A stretch of DNA of 64,000 nt, from assembly GCF_009914755.1 (NCBI RefSeq), contig NC_060933.1; one strand, 5' to 3'. This document shows, in pieces, positions 12,100 through 60,490 of the stretch (position 1 is the stretch's first letter; every line of letters begins with the position of its first letter). The position numbers and the translations under genes are program-made. The DNA is from the human T2T-CHM13v2.0 reference genome, Homo sapiens. The notes beneath the pieces are model-generated. The model was not told the DNA's origin. It ran no database searches and was given only the letters and a program-made list of their open reading frames with translations.

Positions 12100-13830
12100 G
12101 CCCTCCCGACTGAGCAGGGGCTCCCGAGGTGACTAAGCAGGCTCTCTGGGTAGTGCTCCCGCCCTCACCTATTGTCCGGGTGGAGGAACCGGTATTTCCG
12201 GATGGGGGCCTCAGACCCAGTGATCCCGGCTAAGGGTGAGGCTGGCGGGGGAGGGGAACGGAAGCGGGTCGTAAAAGTTAACTTTACACTAAAATCATTA
12301 ACTTTTCTCACACCCCCCAATAAAAGCAGTCACCTCCCCCCCCCAAGAGCCCCCCACGCACCCACAGTGGCCCACAACCATGCTTCCCGGGGGCTTTGAA
12401 GGGTAGAGGAGCTGACATCCTCCTTGCCCAGACCCTGGAAAGGATTAGGAAGCGGACCTGGGCACGAATAGAGAAAGAAGCCCAGCAAATTCCTCTTGCA
12501 CCAGCTCTGGGAGGAAGCTCAGCTGCAGTTCTACGTAGAAGAAAAGAGGCGGCAAAGTAGGCGCGCGGGCTCCAGTGACAAAGGTCTCCCAGGCAGCCGC
12601 GGCCCCTGCCCCACCGCTGAGTGGCGTGCGTGCAGGCCCACCCTCTCCGCCTTTCCCGACACCCCAAAGTAGCGCTGCGAGCAGCTGCGTCTCCCTCCCG
12701 GGGCTCGCGCGCCCAGAACCCTCCGGTCTCAAGGAAGCAGGTGACAGCCGCCGCCCACCCCCTTCCCCTCCCCGCCGCTGCTCTCTGGCTCGCCACCGCC
12801 CAACTCCCCCTGCCCCCACCCTGGATTTTTTTTCCCCTTCTCTCAAACCTCTAAACAGGAAATAGCCCGAATCACAATAATATACGGGAGCAGCCGCGGA
12901 GGCCGCTGGCGCCCTCCCATTCCCGGGGAGCTTCCCGCACTCCGGCTTGGGTGAAGTGCAGCCAGCGACGCGCGCAGGGAGCGCAGGGGGACACCAGCCC
13001 AGCAGCTAGCGCCGCGCCGCCCAGCGCCCCGGAGAGCCGCCTTCGCCCTCGCCCAGCGCCCGACACCGCCGGCCGCGGCGGCGGCCGCCACCGGCTCTAG
13101 GCAAGTACCCTCCTCTCTCTCCCTCCCCGGCCCAGGTGCTGCCTGCCGCACGCCCCGGGAGAGCCGCCGAGGCGCGGCAGCCTGTGCCCAGGCGTCGCCG
13201 GGATGCCTTCCCTCCTGTCCCGACTTTGGCCAGGGAATGATTTGGTGGGCGCGAATTCGCGCTGGTGCCCTGGGTCGTTTGTGCAGGCGGGGTGAGGGGC
13301 AGCGCGAGTAAACGGGTTGACATCCCCTAGGTTTCTCTGCAGAGTGCGCTGTGTACTTCATCGGGCATTTACTTTTTCACTGCTTCCTCATCGCCCCCGG
13401 GGCGGCAGCGCCTCACAGGGTCTCTCTGGGGGAATCATCAACAGGTGTGCCTGAACACGCACCTGCGGCAGCCACAGGTGTCTGGGAGCCACCTTTTTTC
13501 TTCTCCCTGGCCTGGCACCCTTTCACTCAAGGGATGGAAACTGTTTCACTTTCTGCTGAGCTTCTCTTTTACCCGATTAAAAGGGCCTTTGAATTTCTGT
13601 TGGCGCAGCCAACTGCATCGGGTGGGGGCAGGAGCCGGTGCCTTGGAGTGACGCGGGCGGAGCGCGGCGCTGGTTATTGGAAGCTGGTGGGGCTGCTTGA
13701 GTGCCCGCTGAGCCTCCGCCGCGGGGCTTGAAAACTCCGCACTCCAGAAAGCTTGACCGTACAGCCCTGGGGGTGCTCGCCCTGCCCGCGTGGTCCGCAA
13801 AACGGGGATCTCCTCCGCCTAACGCGGCAG
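12100..13830 (+). promoter_or_regulatory. TJP2: Distal CpG-island promoter of TJP2 (upstream, isoform C-type promoter)
   Basis: Repeat-free CpG-dense island ~47 kb upstream of exon 1A; TJP2 is known to have an upstream promoter whose transcripts lack the isoform-A N-terminus. Confidence 0.85.
12640..13100 (+). other. TJP2: Non-coding first exon of the distal TJP2 transcript (start approximate), ending in a GC donor
   Basis: No ATG in this interval; ends CTCTAG|GCAAGT, a perfect GC-AG donor consensus. Confidence 0.7.
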
Positions 13831-31090: not shown

Positions 31091-31835
31091 AGGAAGCTCT
31101 TCAAAGCCAAGAGGAGACTTAAAGAAAATGGAGATGAGGTAGATTCTGAACCTCTCCAAACGATATATTTTCATGATGGCAGGGATCACACATGTTGGGT
31201 TCTAGAGGTATTTAAAAAGTTGTTTTTAATAATAATTTTAAAAACCCACCAAATTGTTTCTTAATTAATTAATCTTTGCTATTGACCCAAGCAAGGAGTT
31301 TATAGTGCTTAGAAATGCATTGCTATAAAATGACAACTAGAATTCCTTCCTCACTTGTCAAAGCACAGGCTTTTAGAGAGAGAGATATTTGTAGAAAGAG
31401 CAAATCTGTTTCTGATTTTAGTTCATCCAGTGGCAGGCAGGCTTTTTGGACCAATTATTACCAGACCTTGAGATAAATCACCTCATGAGCCATTAGTTCT
31501 TGAAGGATTAGCGGCCTCAAAGATTTATGTGCGGATTAATTGGAGTGTACATTAGATCGCCGTGTTTAAAACCGCAGTCATTCCTGCAAATCATTTTCAT
31601 TAGTGCTTTATTCAGAATTATTTAGCCTTGTATAATACTGCCATTGCAGGGAAATCTGAAAGACGTTCTCTTTATTTGTGGTCTGCCCCCCCATCACCAC
31701 GGTTGTGTTTAATAGATCTAGCTAGGGCTACATAGAGAACATCCAAAGGAACAGCAGCTTCCATTAAAGATTAGTTCAGTTGCTTCAGGTGAACAGTGAC
31801 TGAAATTTACAGGACCTTGTACCGAGAGAGACAAG

Positions 31836-31951
31836 ATGAGGTACAAGAAATATATCGGTATTCTGGAAGCAGCAGTTGGTATTACCCCACTTAACAAAAG
31901 AGAACTTCTACCTGAGAGCAGAAGACACGTGAACCTTTGGCAACAACCTGG
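31836..31951 (+). CDS. TJP2: Alternative N-terminal coding exon of TJP2: MRYKKYIGILEAAVGITPLNKRELLPESRRHVNLWQQP(G), phase-2 donor
   Basis: ATG with A at -3 (AAGATGA); in-frame upstream stop at 31797; possible acceptor TTTACAG at 31812; donor GG|GTAAGC at 31952; repeat-free context; resembles the TJP1 alternative N-terminus MKYQKYLTVLQMAIGVTPSN (from memory). Confidence 0.75.
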
Positions 31952-32793
31952 GTAAGCAGAGGAGGCTGGAAGCTTCTCACTATAGATGTAAATACTTTTT
32001 GTCTGTTTTGGGGACCCATATAGAAAAAAGGGTCCTCTGTCTTGTGGGGATAATAAATGAGTTCTTCATTAAGAACTTGTTTCTTCTTGGTGGAGAATGT
32101 AACTCCTAGACTGATTTAAAAATAGGAATGAAATTGTTGGATAATATTCTAATACCCAAGAAGATGAATAATGGGTGTGTCTAGAGCCCATTTTTACAAT
32201 CTAGACATTTAATTTTCTGATTTTGAAAATGTTTTTTTAACATGGTTTACAAATGTAGCAATTCTTAAGAATGAAGAAAATATGCCTTATTACTATAATG
32301 TTTTTCAACAATACAAGTGTTTTTCTGATTAAAGTGTATGTGCAGACTATGCTTCGGGGAAATACTTTGCTTGAAACAGCAGTTTTCCTTCCACATCTCT
32401 TTCTGCAGCCCCACTGATTTACCATGATGAAGAAAGGTTGAGAAGTTCTTTATGCATAGCTACAAGCCTTAGTTCTAACTTTCTTCTCTGAAGTCTTCTT
32501 TTGTGCTTCTTACACATTAAAGACAAGGTGAATTTAAGGTGCCTTTATGGTAGACGATATTTTTAGGGCCTGAATTTAATTTTCAAACTGAATGAGTCAC
32601 ACAGTAGCATGTACTGATCAACTTGCATCTGTGTAGCAAATATTTCTTTTTAACAATTAGATAGTTACTAGCTTATTTTTATCATATGAGCAATGTACAT
32701 TCATTATAGAAGATTTAGAAAATACAGAAAAATAAGGGGGAAAATTACCCATTGTCCTATCTCCCCAAGAGAACTACTAGAATCGTTTAGGTC

Positions 32794-33018
32794 AGTGGTT
32801 GTCAACGGGGAGGTGGAAATAGGGAATTTTGCTCCCCAGGGGACAATTGTCAATGTCTGGGGGCATTTTTTTTGTTGTTATAGCCCAGGGGTTGCTATTG
32901 GCATCTAGTTGGTAGAGTCTGGGGATACTGCCCAACATCCCACAAGGTACAGGACAGCCCCCTGCAACAACGAATTATCCAGCCCACAGTGTCAACGGTG
33001 CCACTGGTGAGACATTTG
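32794..33018. mobile_element. MER20 hAT DNA transposon
   Basis: CAGTGGTTGTCAAC...GGCATCTAGTTGGTAGAG...AATTATCCAGCCCACAGTGTCAA. Confidence 0.85.
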
Positions 33019-33381
33019 ATTTAGATAGGTTTTCTTCCCATCTGTAAAAGGGTACATTTTATTAGAAAAAAATAAATATTTCTTTGGGAAATCTTAGAGA
33101 TGCTTTAGAATGGAATTCTGAGGCAACATTTTAATTATATTATTGTTATTCTACTGTTATTGTCTTGAAAGTAAATGGAAGTGTGTATATGCGTGGAGAG
33201 GGCAGGGGGCATACAGAGACTCTATCAGAGTCCATGTAGGTTAATGCTGTTCAGCCAGGGCTGTGGAAAACATTGTAATGACTAAACTGAGATTCTCCAA
33301 GTAGCCTCTCGTGATTGGGCATGCGGTAGCCTAGACCTTAGTCTCAGAATGACGAAAGTTTAGAACTGGGAGGACCTTTGC

Positions 33382-33582
33382 CAGGGATGGCAAACAGGTT
33401 TCATGTGGAAGACAGGTGCCAGTTGATGGTTGGCTGCTTGGAGTATCTAGCTAGGAGGACCTGGAGGCCAAACCTGGGCTTAGCGGGAAAGGAATATCGC
33501 AACTGATTAGGGATGTTTGTTCTGAACCTATGATTAGGGAATTGGGGAGATGCAAGCCGTGGCCTATATATTTACCATTCCT
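33382..33582. mobile_element. MER102-like hAT element
   Basis: Termini CAGGGATGGCAAACAGGTTTCAT and ATTTACCATTCCTG. Confidence 0.55.
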
Positions 33583-33932
33583 GAATTCTAGTTTAGTGTT
33601 CGAATTTTACAAGTGGGAAACTCAGCCTCATTGGAGTCATCCTGATCAAGGGCCTGGCTCTCAGACAGAAACGGGATGTTCTTAGTTTCTGCCTCAGGGT
33701 CTTTCATGAAGGGATTCGGCCTAAACAAGCTCCCATGATTCAGATGTGCAAGTTGATTGCTAGATTATTAATTTTTGTTCAGAGATAACCTCTACTAGCA
33801 ATTGGAATAAGTACCCTAAATAGACCTAAATAGATCTCTGCTTCTCCTCATTTCCCCAAATCAAACCAAACAGAAGTCAAATTATTACAAAGTAGCCCTT
33901 AATAAGGGAAGTTGAATGTGCCTTTTTTTTGA

Positions 33933-36731
<2,799 letters not shown>

Positions 36732-36894
36732 AAAATATTTTGTTCTAGCTATTTTCTCACCCGCTGATATTTGTTTAACCTGAAAGGCGAATTCTTATAA
36801 GATCTTGTTTCTCAGAGTGACCCTCAGGTGGACTGGTGATACCAAAGTTTAGGTGGCAATTCACTTTCTCCATTTTTTGAAGACTGAAAACAGG

Positions 36895-37715
36895 GGCAGC
36901 AATTCCATTATTTCTGAGAGAAATGAAAACATATGTCCACATAAACAATTGTACACAAGTGTTCATAATGACCAAAGAGTAGAAACAACCCAAACTTCCA
37001 CCAACTGAAGAATAGATAATAAAATGTGGTATATCCATACAATGTAATATTATTTGGCCATAAAAAGGAATGAAGTGCTGATGTATGCTATAACATCAAT
37101 GAACCCTGAATACATTATGCTAAGTAAAAGAAGGCAGTCACAAAAGGCCTCATATCATATGAGTCCATTCATATGAAATATCCAGAATAGATAAATCTAT
37201 AGAGTAAAAAATTAGATTGGTGGTTGCCTAGGGCCAAGAGGCAGAGAGAGAATTGGGGGCTCAGGGAATGATGGCTAATGGTTATGGGGCTTTTCTTATG
37301 GGGTTAAGGAAGATCTTCTAAAATGGATTGTGGGCCGGGCGCAGTGGCTGACGCCTGTAATCCCAGCACTTTGGGAAGTCGAGGTGGGTGGATCACCTGA
37401 GGTCGGGAGTTCAAGACCAGCCTGACCAACATGGAGAAACCCCGTCTCTACTAAAAATACAAAATTAGCCGGGTGTGGTGGCGCATGCCTGTAATCCCAG
37501 CTTTCCGGGAGGTTGAGGCAGGAGAATTGCTTGAACCAGCAGGCAGAGGTTGCGGTGAGCCGATATCACACCATTGCACTCTAGCCTGGGCAACGAGCAA
37601 AACTCCGTCTCAAAAAAAAAAAAAAAGGATTGTGGTGACAGTTGCATAACTCTGTGAAGGTACTAAAAGCCATCCTAAAAACGGGCAAATTGTATGGTAT
37701 GTGGACTTCAGTGCA
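36895..37715 (+). mobile_element. L1MB-type 3' end interrupted by AluS (37332-37626, TSD GGATTGTGG)
   Basis: AGAAATGAAAACATATGTCCAC...ATAAAAAGGAATGAAGTGCTGAT...; L1 sequence resumes after the Alu. Confidence 0.85.
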
Positions 37716-37781
37716 TTTCCCAAAATCTTACCATTGCAGGGAATGAGCATGTTGGATTTTTAACAACACTGTCTTTTCCAG

Positions 37782-37902
37782 GGTGCGAAGTACCACATTA
37801 CTGTCATCTCCCTGTGAGTGGGATTGGCACCCCGGCTGCAGCTCCAGGAGCAAGTACTCCAGGAAGCACAGAGCTGTACCAGTACACGGCCCACGTTGCC
37901 AG
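37782..37902 (+). CDS. TJP2: 121-nt TJP2 exon: 5'UTR when joined to the distal first exon, coding (G)VRSTTLLSSPCEWDWHPGCSSRSKYSRKHRAVPVHGPRCQ when joined to 31836-31951
   Basis: Acceptor GTCTTTTCCAG|, donor CAG|GTATTT; 1 nt + 40 stop-free codons; ends in phase 0 like exon 1A. Confidence 0.8.

Positions 37903-59539: not shown

Positions 59540-60490
<951 letters not shown>

What the first reader, a model, noticed from the sequence alone, without database searches (positions are those of the whole stretch)
31836..37902. Hidden two-exon 79-aa alternative N-terminus of ZO-2, apparently paralogous to the TJP1 long N-terminus
Seen: ATG 31836 opens 38 codons plus 2 nt up to a GTAAGC donor. Splicing to the 121-nt exon (37782-37902) gives MRYKKYIGILEAAVGITPLNKRELLPESRRHVNLWQQPGVRSTTLLSSPCEWDWHPGCSSRSKYSRKHRAVPVHGPRCQ with no stop. 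It ends in phase 0, so it can replace exon 1A on the common PDZ1 exon. The ORF track misses the first exon. From memory: TJP1 has an alternative start RDKMKYQKYLTVLQMAIGVTPSN, and here the codons before the ATG also read RDK. Inference: this is an N-terminal module retained since the ZO-1/ZO-2 duplication, with a basic-then-hydrophobic segment that could act as a targeting or binding helix. It may exist as a minor predicted isoform in Ensembl/TrEMBL, but I know of no functional description.
Basis: partly seen in the sequence, partly recalled or inferred. Interest (0 to 1): 0.85.

Follow-up and report, generated by a model that had tools for sequence, protein, structure and literature searches.

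The report
Unannotated ancient start exon in TJP2
An intact but unannotated exon in the first long intron of the human ZO-2 gene is the ancient sister of a known alternative start exon of ZO-1, though whether human cells still use it, and the second half of the proposed 79-residue extension, remain unproven.

Summary
The sequence facts hold. ATG 31836 opens 38 codons plus 2 nt, followed by a GTAAGC donor. Joined to the RefSeq 121-nt exon (37782-37902) this gives 79 codons without a stop, ending in phase 0.

The first exon is real homology. A six-frame search of the whole genome finds only itself and the 5'-most exon of TJP1. The two share 16 of 32 residues, show coding-type divergence by codon position, and end in the same intron phase.

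The TJP1 version is widely predicted in vertebrates. In zebrafish it is the published ZO1b-Beta start, needed for connexin localisation at electrical synapses.

The second half is unsupported. The 121-nt exon shows no similarity to the highly conserved TJP1 second exon, two of its three frames are open, and RefSeq treats it as 5'UTR.

None of 20 RefSeq TJP2 transcripts contains the first exon, and 0 of 59 retrieved module-bearing proteins is TJP2-like. Full-length isoforms and other vertebrate genomes could not be searched.

Verdict: a true ancient paralogous start exon. I put a rarely used isoform at 0.45 and a recently retired relic at 0.40.

The parts
31836..31951 (+). Exon A coding part. 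It holds the ATG, 38 codons and 2 nt, and is the homologue of the TJP1 'Beta-type' alternative first coding exon.
   Evidence: ORF and donor. Genome-wide, the only paralogous hit is the TJP1 5' exon, E 6.7e-4. BLASTP gives 16/32 identical and 25/32 positive, pairwise E 4e-13. A profile of 43 TJP1-type exons scores E 1.9e-8, with the next best piece at 1.1. Identity by codon position is 59/72/31 % and dS is saturated.
31789..31835 (+). Possible 5' leader of exon A. Candidate acceptors are ttgcttcag|G at 31788/31789 and tttacag|G at 31812/31813. It holds no ATG. Whether the exon is internal or a first exon is unknown.
   Evidence: Read. No ATG in 31789-31835. The acceptors were judged by eye only and were not scored.
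31797..31799 (+). In-frame TGA upstream of the ATG. Translation in this frame cannot start further upstream within this exon.
31952..31957 (+). GTAAGC splice donor, phase 2. It lies 12 nt downstream of the position that aligns with the TJP1 donor, which in TJP2 reads TG|GC.
37782..37902 (+). Exon B. A RefSeq 5'UTR exon of upstream-promoter (ZO-2C type) transcripts, 1 + 40 codons in the required frame. It matches TJP1's second alternative exon in position and phase but shows no sequence similarity to it.
   Evidence: Annotation. Frames. No BLASTP alignment at E <= 100. 3443 of 5000 shuffles reach the local score. It is not among the 162 rows at E <= 100 of the exon-2L profile search.
12639..13100 (+). 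Upstream GC-rich promoter region and its non-coding first exons (12639-12740 and 12859-13100). These are the likely source of transcripts that could include exon A. Neither exon contains an ATG.
   Evidence: Annotation. GC 0.66, CpG o/e 0.72 and no ATG in these exons. The review PMC6747478 (passages) places promoter PC upstream of PA.
59855..60232 (+). Canonical first exon (ZO-2A; coding part 60173-60232). The proposed extension would replace its 20 codons.

Best explanation
Exon A (31836-31951) is the ZO-2 copy of an alternative first coding exon that already existed in the ancestral ZO gene before ZO-1 and ZO-2 separated. In ZO-1 the same exon starts the 'long' or Beta-type isoform. It supplies the initiator Met and about 31 residues, ends after 2 nt of a codon, and joins a second short exon (phase 2 to 0) and then the common PDZ1 exon.

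The human TJP2 copy keeps the Met, the sequence around it, the residues that are nearly invariant in ZO-1, the reading frame and the intron phase.

My preferred reading is that it still works as a rarely or tissue-restrictedly included start exon. A transcript from the upstream GC-rich promoter that includes exon A before the 121-nt exon would carry ATG 31836 as its first AUG. It would be translated into ZO-2 with a 79-residue extension in place of the 20 residues encoded by the canonical first exon. That extension would be a short N-terminal helix (residues 4-14) followed by a poorly conserved linker from the 121-nt exon.

Shown: homology, frame, phase and splice-compatible geometry. Inferred: inclusion in mRNA, translation and any function. 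By analogy with zebrafish ZO1b-Beta, the function would be isoform-specific placement or partner choice of the scaffold.
For: 1. A whole-genome six-frame search with the 41 residues around the start returns two places at E <= 10: itself and chr15:27760298-27760393(-). The second lies inside the 5'-most exon of TJP1, 288 nt from the annotated gene end.
2. 16/32 residues are identical and 25/32 positive. Identity by codon position is 59/72/31 %, dN is 0.49 and dS is saturated.
3. The only alignment gap is 3 codons. TJP1 ends after 31 codons + 2 nt and TJP2 after 38 codons + 2 nt, so the phase is the same. The second exons are 133 nt and 121 nt, both running from phase 2 to phase 0.
4. A profile of 43 vertebrate TJP1-type exons picks exon A out of 5652 six-frame pieces of the 109-kb TJP2 5' region. 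It scores E 1.9e-8 and the next best scores 1.1.
5. Exon A is conserved between the paralogues more than a real coding exon is. TJP2 exon 5 (203 aa) has no paralogue hit at E <= 0.001 genome-wide. The PDZ1 exon is 84 % identical.
6. There is no ATG in 12639-12740, 12859-13100, 31789-31835 or exon B.
7. AlphaFold2 predicts the same helix for the TJP2 and TJP1 versions, with block-mean pLDDT of 81-89 over the first 20 residues.
8. The zebrafish counterpart is functional (PMC10703405, passages). Its published Beta-exon primers translate to peptides found in 15 and in 4 of the stored fish proteins.
Against: 1. None of the 20 RefSeq TJP2 transcripts in the annotation file, Gnomon models included, contains exon A.
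2. None of the proteins retrieved in three profile searches is TJP2-like. Of 84 stored proteins, 59 carry the module and 0 of those 59 is closer to exon A than to TJP1. This is a weak negative. Only proteins of roughly 28-304 aa could be candidates. In addition, 4, 372 and 1325 candidates without a named source were left out before scoring.
3. Exon B lacks the motif that is nearly invariant in ZO-1's second exon, which 80 of the 84 stored proteins carry. It shows no similarity to that exon. Its conceptual peptide has 3 Cys and 2 Trp in 40 residues.
4. Exon A is not in a CpG island (GC 0.37, CpG o/e 0.29), whereas the TJP1 exon is (GC 0.76, o/e 1.0). No promoter or acceptor has been demonstrated.
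5. Alternative ZO start exons can die. The human TJP1 CARD-type exon carries 3 stops in 115 codons. At that density a 38-codon relic would still be stop-free about one time in three (my arithmetic).
Confidence: 0.45

Rival explanations
1. Relic exon. Exon A was a working start exon of ZO-2 for most of vertebrate history. It has been retired in the lineage leading to humans, recently enough that the ATG, frame and donor have not yet decayed. Exon B survives only as a 5'UTR exon of ZO-2C transcripts, and its open frame is fortuitous.
For: Exon A is absent from all 20 RefSeq transcripts. No TJP2-type protein was found among the 84 retrieved. Exon B lacks the motif that is nearly invariant in ZO-1 and has two of three frames open. 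Exon A sits in AT-rich, CpG-poor DNA with no CpG-island signature. There is a precedent: the human TJP1 CARD-type start exon is broken by 3 stops.
Against: The exon has an intact ATG, 38 open codons and a good GTAAG donor in the ancestral phase. Of the 16 differing residues, 9 are conservative. The donor moved by exactly 12 nt and the indel is exactly 9 nt, as expected while the frame still mattered. All of these could also be inherited from a recently functional ancestor.
Confidence: 0.4
2. Regulatory cassette. Exon A is included now and then in upstream-promoter transcripts. It matters mainly by changing which AUG is used: it moves initiation from the internal Met of ZO-2C to an upstream AUG. 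The added peptide itself would have no specific function.
For: The upstream leader exons and exon B are free of ATG, so inclusion of exon A would bring in the first AUG, with A at -3. Ten bases around the ATG are identical in TJP1 and TJP2.
Against: The divergence pattern shows constraint on the encoded residues along the whole 32-residue block, not only at the start site. No transcript evidence exists for this reading either.
Confidence: 0.1
3. Chance ORF. The similarity to TJP1 is accidental and the exon is ordinary intron.
For: The exon is short (38 codons), lies in AT-rich intron and is unannotated.
Against: The only non-self hit in 3.1 Gb falls in the alternative start exon of the paralogous gene. 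The profile E-value is 1.9e-8. The intron phase is shared.
Confidence: 0.01

Closest known systems
Human TJP1 (ZO-1) long N-terminus. First exon chr15:27760293-27760675(-), second exon chr15:27747862-27747994(-) in T2T-CHM13.
   Same: It has a start Met in the same sequence context. It shares 16/32 identical residues, a predicted helix at residues 4-13, an exon end in phase 2, and a second short exon running from phase 2 to 0 before the common PDZ1 exon.
   Different: The TJP1 exon is a first exon inside a CpG island and lies within the annotated gene. Exon A is AT-rich, lies 19 kb downstream of the TJP2 upstream promoter and is unannotated. TJP1's second exon carries a nearly invariant basic/serine motif that the TJP2 121-nt exon lacks. 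The TJP2 donor lies 12 nt further downstream.
Zebrafish tjp1b ZO1b-Beta isoform (PLoS Genet 2023, PMC10703405; abstract and passages read).
   Same: It is the same module. The paper's Beta-exon forward primer translates to a peptide present in 15 stored fish proteins that carry the module. The exon-3 reverse primer translates to a peptide present in 4 of them. It is an alternative start exon followed by exons shared with a CARD-type start.
   Different: It is a ZO-1 gene, not ZO-2. [quoted passage not shown] Nothing of the kind is known for TJP2. The authors state that the Beta sequence 'fails to predict function'. The N-terminal sequences appear only in figures, which I could not see.
ZO-2A / ZO-2C alternative promoters of TJP2 (review PMC6747478, passages read; it cites Chlenski et al., which I did not read).
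   Same: It uses the same upstream promoter region and the same 121-nt exon. In RefSeq, upstream-promoter transcripts carry it as 5'UTR and start at the internal Met of the common exon.
   Different: ZO-2C lacks an N-terminal extension. The reading proposed here adds exon A and would turn that 5'UTR into coding sequence.
Alpha/beta alternative N-termini of SAP97 and PSD-95 (as summarised in PMC10703405).
   Same: It is a MAGUK scaffold whose alternative first exons give short N-terminal modules that direct the protein to different sites.
   Different: There is no sequence relationship. Those modules are a palmitoylated motif or an L27 domain. Pfam finds nothing at E <= 1 in exon A or in the TJP1 long N-termini.

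Membership tests
ZO 'Beta-type' alternative N-terminus (TJP1 long form / ZO1b-Beta) | Initiator Met followed by the conserved block. Y3, Y6, A13, G15, N20 and P26 are invariant. Q4, K5, T8, V9, Q11, V16, T17 and the junction Trp are conserved in at least 90% of 34 aligned sequences. | tested here: met
   All six invariant positions are kept in exon A. Of the eight nearly invariant positions, exon A keeps K5, T17 and the Trp and differs at five. Profile match E 1.9e-8. BLASTP 16/32 identical.
ZO 'Beta-type' alternative N-terminus (TJP1 long form / ZO1b-Beta) | The exon ends 2 nt into a codon (phase 2), right at the conserved Leu/Met-Trp. | tested here: met
   The phase is identical: 31 codons + 2 nt versus 38 codons + 2 nt. 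The Leu-Trp is kept but the donor lies 12 nt downstream of it. The aligned ancestral position reads TG|GC in TJP2.
ZO 'Beta-type' alternative N-terminus (TJP1 long form / ZO1b-Beta) | It is followed by a second exon with the nearly invariant basic/serine motif (K-P-S-L-R-R-I-K-G-R-x-H-R-S-K-S-L-D-S). | tested here: not met
   Exon B gives no BLASTP alignment at E <= 100. 3443 of 5000 shuffles reach the local score. Exon B is absent from the 162 rows at E <= 100 of the profile search. No such motif was found elsewhere upstream of the canonical exon. The best local match (E 0.21) lies in another annotated TJP2 start exon, at chr9:81372961.
ZO 'Beta-type' alternative N-terminus (TJP1 long form / ZO1b-Beta) | The second exon runs from phase 2 to phase 0 and joins the common PDZ1 exon in frame. 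| tested here: met
   121 nt (1 + 40 codons) in TJP2 and 133 nt (1 + 44 codons) in TJP1. The common exon starts in phase 0.
ZO 'Beta-type' alternative N-terminus (TJP1 long form / ZO1b-Beta) | It is a first exon with its own CpG-island promoter. | tested here: not met
   Around exon A: GC 0.37, CpG o/e 0.29. Around the TJP1 exon: GC 0.76, o/e 1.0. Composition only; no CAGE or TSS data were available.
ZO 'Beta-type' alternative N-terminus (TJP1 long form / ZO1b-Beta) | It is present in annotated or observed transcripts as coding sequence. | tested here: not met
   0 of 20 RefSeq TJP2 transcripts contain it. Ensembl/GENCODE, reads, Ribo-seq and proteomics could not be tested with these tools.
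ZO 'Beta-type' alternative N-terminus (TJP1 long form / ZO1b-Beta) | It is conserved in orthologues, here the TJP2 genes of other vertebrates. | tested here: inconclusive
   0 of the 59 module-bearing proteins is closer to exon A than to TJP1. Only fragments of about 28-304 aa with a named source could be found. No vertebrate genomes were available.

The most novel reading that the evidence does not exclude
Human ZO-2 makes a so far unannotated 'Beta-type' isoform, the counterpart of zebrafish ZO1b-Beta. Transcripts from the upstream promoter would include exon A in particular cell types, with neurons that have electrical synapses, inner ear and liver as the obvious candidates. The conserved N-terminal helix would give ZO-2 an isoform-specific location or partner. 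Variants in exon A, now classed as deep intronic, would then be coding variants of a disease gene. It would also mean that the ancestral vertebrate ZO gene already had the multi-start architecture seen in zebrafish tjp1b.
Probability: 0.3. Interest if true: 0.65.

Novelty: new member of a known kind. Interest (0 to 1): 0.45.

Why it matters
TJP2 is a disease gene. Its loss is linked to severe liver disease (passage in PMC12522691). It is also listed among hearing-loss genes, which I saw only in the search listing.

If exon A is used, ZO-2 has an N-terminal isoform that nobody has studied, and a stretch of 'intron' becomes coding for variant interpretation.

In zebrafish the same module marks the ZO-1 isoform that electrical synapses need, so there is a concrete hypothesis to test.

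Even if the exon is a relic, it shows that the Beta-type start predates the ZO-1/ZO-2 duplication. It also shows that ZO genes shed alternative starts lineage by lineage. The human TJP1 CARD-type exon is another example.

Tried and rejected
1. Full-length TJP2 isoforms of other species. The protein word search admits only candidates near the query's length, and a spliced query may not be typed. I therefore ran three profile searches with progressively longer first rows. They reached about 28-304 aa and found only TJP1-type fragments. This leaves the key cross-species question open.

2. Homology of exon B to TJP1's second exon. I tried BLASTP, a DNA alignment, a shuffle test and a profile of 59 sequences against the 109-kb region. 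All were negative. As a control, a real 203-aa TJP2 coding exon also has no paralogue hit. So these negatives do not show that exon B is non-coding.

3. Other partners for exon A. The 118-nt exon at chr9:81352884-81353001 has a stop in the required frame. The start exon at chr9:81372961 has no acceptor in the right frame (by eye).

4. A CARD-type exon in TJP2. tblastn with 5 CARD-bearing proteins against the 109-kb region gave nothing better than E 0.29.

5. A TJP3 counterpart. Nothing was found genome-wide or in 40 kb of its 5' region.

6. Pfam found no family for exon A or for the TJP1 long N-termini. Exon B gave one chance-level match (E 0.13, 12.5 bits against a cut-off of 27). The Atlas gave no usable hit.

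7. Amphipathic-helix idea. The hydrophobic moment is not above shuffles: 537 and 295 of 2000 shuffles reach it. The hydrophobicity scale was recalled from memory.

8. Literature. Searches found no paper on such a TJP2 exon. PMC11317171 does not mention TJP1 or TJP2. PMC5898269 only lists Tjp2 among genes with alternative promoters. Isoform tables and the N-terminal alignment (S2 Fig) of PMC10703405 could bear on this.

9. Splice sites were judged by eye only, because no scoring tool was available.
Full report
**Observation**

The window is the 5' part of TJP2. ATG 31836 opens 38 codons plus 2 nt, followed by GTAAGC at 31952. The RefSeq exon 37782-37902 is 121 nt. Translated from its second base it gives 40 codons without a stop. 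Joined in a script, the two give 79 codons with no stop.

The canonical first exon contributes 60 coding nt, so the common exon at chr9:81380352 starts in phase 0 and the frame runs on. An in-frame TGA lies 12 codons upstream of the ATG.

In RefSeq the 121-nt exon occurs in 8 of the 20 TJP2 transcripts, always as 5'UTR, and the coding sequence then starts at the internal Met of the common exon. No transcript contains 31836-31951.

**The first exon is a true paralogue of a TJP1 exon**

I ran a six-frame search of the whole T2T genome with the 41 residues around the start. At E <= 10 it returned two places: the query itself and chr15:27760298-27760393 on the minus strand (E 6.7e-4, 50 % over 32 residues). 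That place is inside the 5'-most exon of TJP1, and its ATG lies 288 nt from the annotated gene end.

- Pairwise BLASTP gives 16/32 identical and 25/32 positive, with no gaps.
- Over those 32 codons, identity at codon positions 1, 2 and 3 is 59, 72 and 31 %.
- GC3 is 0.38 in TJP2 against 0.97 in TJP1, dN is 0.49 and dS is saturated. This is how two coding sequences diverge, not two pieces of intron.
- Ten bases around the ATG are identical.
- The only gap in the protein alignment is three codons.
- TJP1's exon ends after 31 codons + 2 nt at TG|GTGAGG, and TJP2's ends after 38 codons + 2 nt, so the intron phase is the same.
- The conserved Leu-Trp that sits on the TJP1 junction is present in TJP2, but there the junction position reads TG|GC. 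The GTAAGC donor lies exactly 12 nt further on.

**The TJP1 module is widespread and, in fish, functionally described**

I ran three profile searches of the protein database.
- 3 of 3 scored candidates passed; 4 were left out.
- 62 of 77 passed; 372 were left out.
- 84 of 172 passed; 1325 were left out.

They returned 84 different proteins of 31-279 aa from mammals, an alligator, a frog, a snake and many ray-finned fishes, mostly teleosts. Most are named 'hypothetical'; several are named ZO-1 by their source.

- 59 of the 84 carry the first-exon block and 80 carry the core of the second-exon motif.
- In an alignment of 34 of them, the second exon's motif K-P-S-L-R-R-I-K-G-R-x-H-R-S-K-S-L-D-S is nearly invariant from fish to man.
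- Human TJP1's second exon lies at chr15:27747862-27747994(-). It is 133 nt (1 + 44 codons) and ends in phase 0.
- One squirrel TJP1 fragment shows it running on into PDZ1 (P0034).

A PLoS Genetics paper (PMC10703405; abstract and passages read) describes three alternative starts of zebrafish tjp1b:
- Alpha, which has a CARD domain;
- Beta;
- Gamma.

Alpha and Beta share exons 3-4. [quoted passage not shown] The authors say its sequence 'fails to predict function'.

The isoform sequences are only in figures, which I could not see. However, the paper's Beta qPCR primers translate to V-M-Q-L-A-L, found in 15 stored fish proteins, and to K-Y-G-P-A-V, found in 4.

**How strong is the TJP2 copy?**

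A profile built from 43 TJP1-type first exons was run against all 5652 six-frame pieces of the 109-kb TJP2 5' region (chr9:81272001-81381000). Exon A came first at E 1.9e-8 and the next piece scored 1.1.

All six positions that are invariant in the 34-sequence alignment are kept in exon A.

For calibration, TJP2's PDZ1 exon is 84 % identical to TJP1 and 69 % to TJP3. TJP2's 203-residue exon 5 has no paralogue hit at all at E <= 0.001. Exon A is therefore better conserved between the paralogues than a real coding linker exon.

TJP3 shows no counterpart genome-wide or in 40 kb of its 5' region.

AlphaFold2 with the family alignment predicts a helix at residues 4-14 for exon A and 4-13 for the TJP1 form. 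Block-mean pLDDT is 81-89 over the first 20 residues, and the rest is disordered. The helix is hydrophobic after a basic start. Its hydrophobic moment is not above shuffles: 537 and 295 of 2000 shuffles reach it.

**The second half is not supported as a conserved module**

Exon B matches TJP1's second exon in position and phase. It lies between the Beta-type exon and the canonical first exon and runs from phase 2 to phase 0. No sequence similarity supports it:
- no BLASTP alignment at E <= 100;
- 3443 of 5000 shuffles reach the local score;
- exon B is not among the 162 rows at E <= 100 of the second-exon profile search.

Two of its three frames are open, so the open frame means little.

The control shows that lack of paralogue similarity does not prove an exon is non-coding. 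But the part that is most conserved in ZO-1 is missing here.

The best local match of the second-exon profile (E 0.21, seven of twelve residues identical) falls in another annotated TJP2 start exon, at chr9:81372961. That is suggestive at most.

**Context for use**

The upstream promoter region (about 12.3-13.5 kb in the window) is GC-rich (0.66, CpG o/e 0.72). Exon A sits in AT-rich DNA (0.37, o/e 0.29), whereas the TJP1 exon is in a CpG island (0.76, o/e 1.0).

Candidate acceptors lie at 31788|31789 and 31812|31813 (judged by eye). The leader exons 12639-12740 and 12859-13100, the stretch 31789-31835 and exon B contain no ATG. In a transcript made of an upstream exon, exon A and exon B, ATG 31836 (A at -3) would therefore be the first AUG.

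The ZO-2 review PMC6747478 (passages) describes ZO-2C as coming from the upstream promoter and lacking 23 residues of ZO-2A. This fits the RefSeq models.

**Weighing**

Homology and long-term coding constraint are, in my view, settled (about 0.95).

Present-day use is not.
- Against it: absence from all 20 RefSeq transcripts, no TJP2-type protein among the 84, the unconserved exon B, and no CpG-island or other promoter signature.
- For it: an intact ATG, frame and donor; in-frame indel and donor shift; and conservation above that of a real linker exon.

A recently retired exon would look the same. The human TJP1 CARD-type exon (chr15:27864340-27864684) is still 55 % identical to a bat protein but carries three stops in 115 codons. 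At that density a 38-codon relic would be stop-free about one time in three.

I put a rarely used functional start exon at 0.45, a relic at 0.40, a mainly regulatory cassette at 0.10 and chance at 0.01.

**Limits**

- No vertebrate genomes, reads, Ensembl models or supplementary files were available.
- The protein search could not see full-length isoforms.
- Splice sites were not scored.
- That TJP1 and TJP2 separated in the early vertebrate genome duplications is recalled knowledge, not tested here.

**Novelty**

The kind of feature is known: the ZO-1 Beta-type start, annotated and studied in zebrafish. A ZO-2 member of it appears in none of the 20 RefSeq transcripts, in none of the papers found by searches, and in none of the 84 proteins. 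I therefore file it as a new member of a known kind. It may still exist in catalogues that I could not query.

Noticed in passing
L018 1501-1845 (-) = chr15:27864340-27864684, about 104 kb upstream of the annotated TJP1 5' end: Five predicted proteins (a bat, a snake and three teleosts; Pfam CARD precomputed) join an N-terminal CARD domain directly to the TJP1 second alternative exon. This matches the published zebrafish ZO1b-Alpha. The human counterpart of the CARD exon is recognisable (55 % identical to the bat protein) but carries three stop codons. Humans therefore seem to have lost this ZO-1 start. No gene is annotated there.
   Followed up: partly
L014 8961-9032 = chr9:81372961-81373032 (outside the window): In the whole 109-kb TJP2 5' region, the best match of the ZO-1 second-exon profile is the annotated alternative TJP2 start exon. 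L-R-R-W-K-G-R-V there aligns with L-R-R-I-K-G-R-I, E 0.21 locally. It is weak. It might be a remnant of the missing motif, or it might be chance.
   Followed up: partly
Stored proteins P0007, P0008, P0010, P0011, P0035, P0036, P0071 (fish): In several fish models of both tjp1 copies the open frame continues upstream of the module's Met, with a similar hydrophobic stretch ending in V-A-V-D-[KN]. Three of these are auto-named 'Secreted protein'. This is either a conserved 5' leader or an upstream start. The human TJP1 and TJP2 leaders share D-K before the Met and 10 identical bases around the ATG.
   Followed up: no
L013 6884-7001 = chr9:81352884-81353001 (outside the window): The 118-nt exon of NM_001369871 translates like an Alu-derived sequence and has a stop in the frame that exon A would need. 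The ZO-2 review mentions a TJP2-Alu transcript.
   Followed up: partly
Stored protein P0003 (Apodemus): This ZO-1 fragment has 24 extra residues between the first and second alternative exons. This suggests a further cassette exon in some rodents.
   Followed up: no
L021 4772-5380 = chr9:81388772-81389380 (TJP2 exon 5): This 203-residue coding exon has no detectable match in TJP1 or TJP3 in a genome-wide six-frame search at E <= 0.001. It was useful as a control for how fast ZO linker regions diverge.
   Followed up: yes
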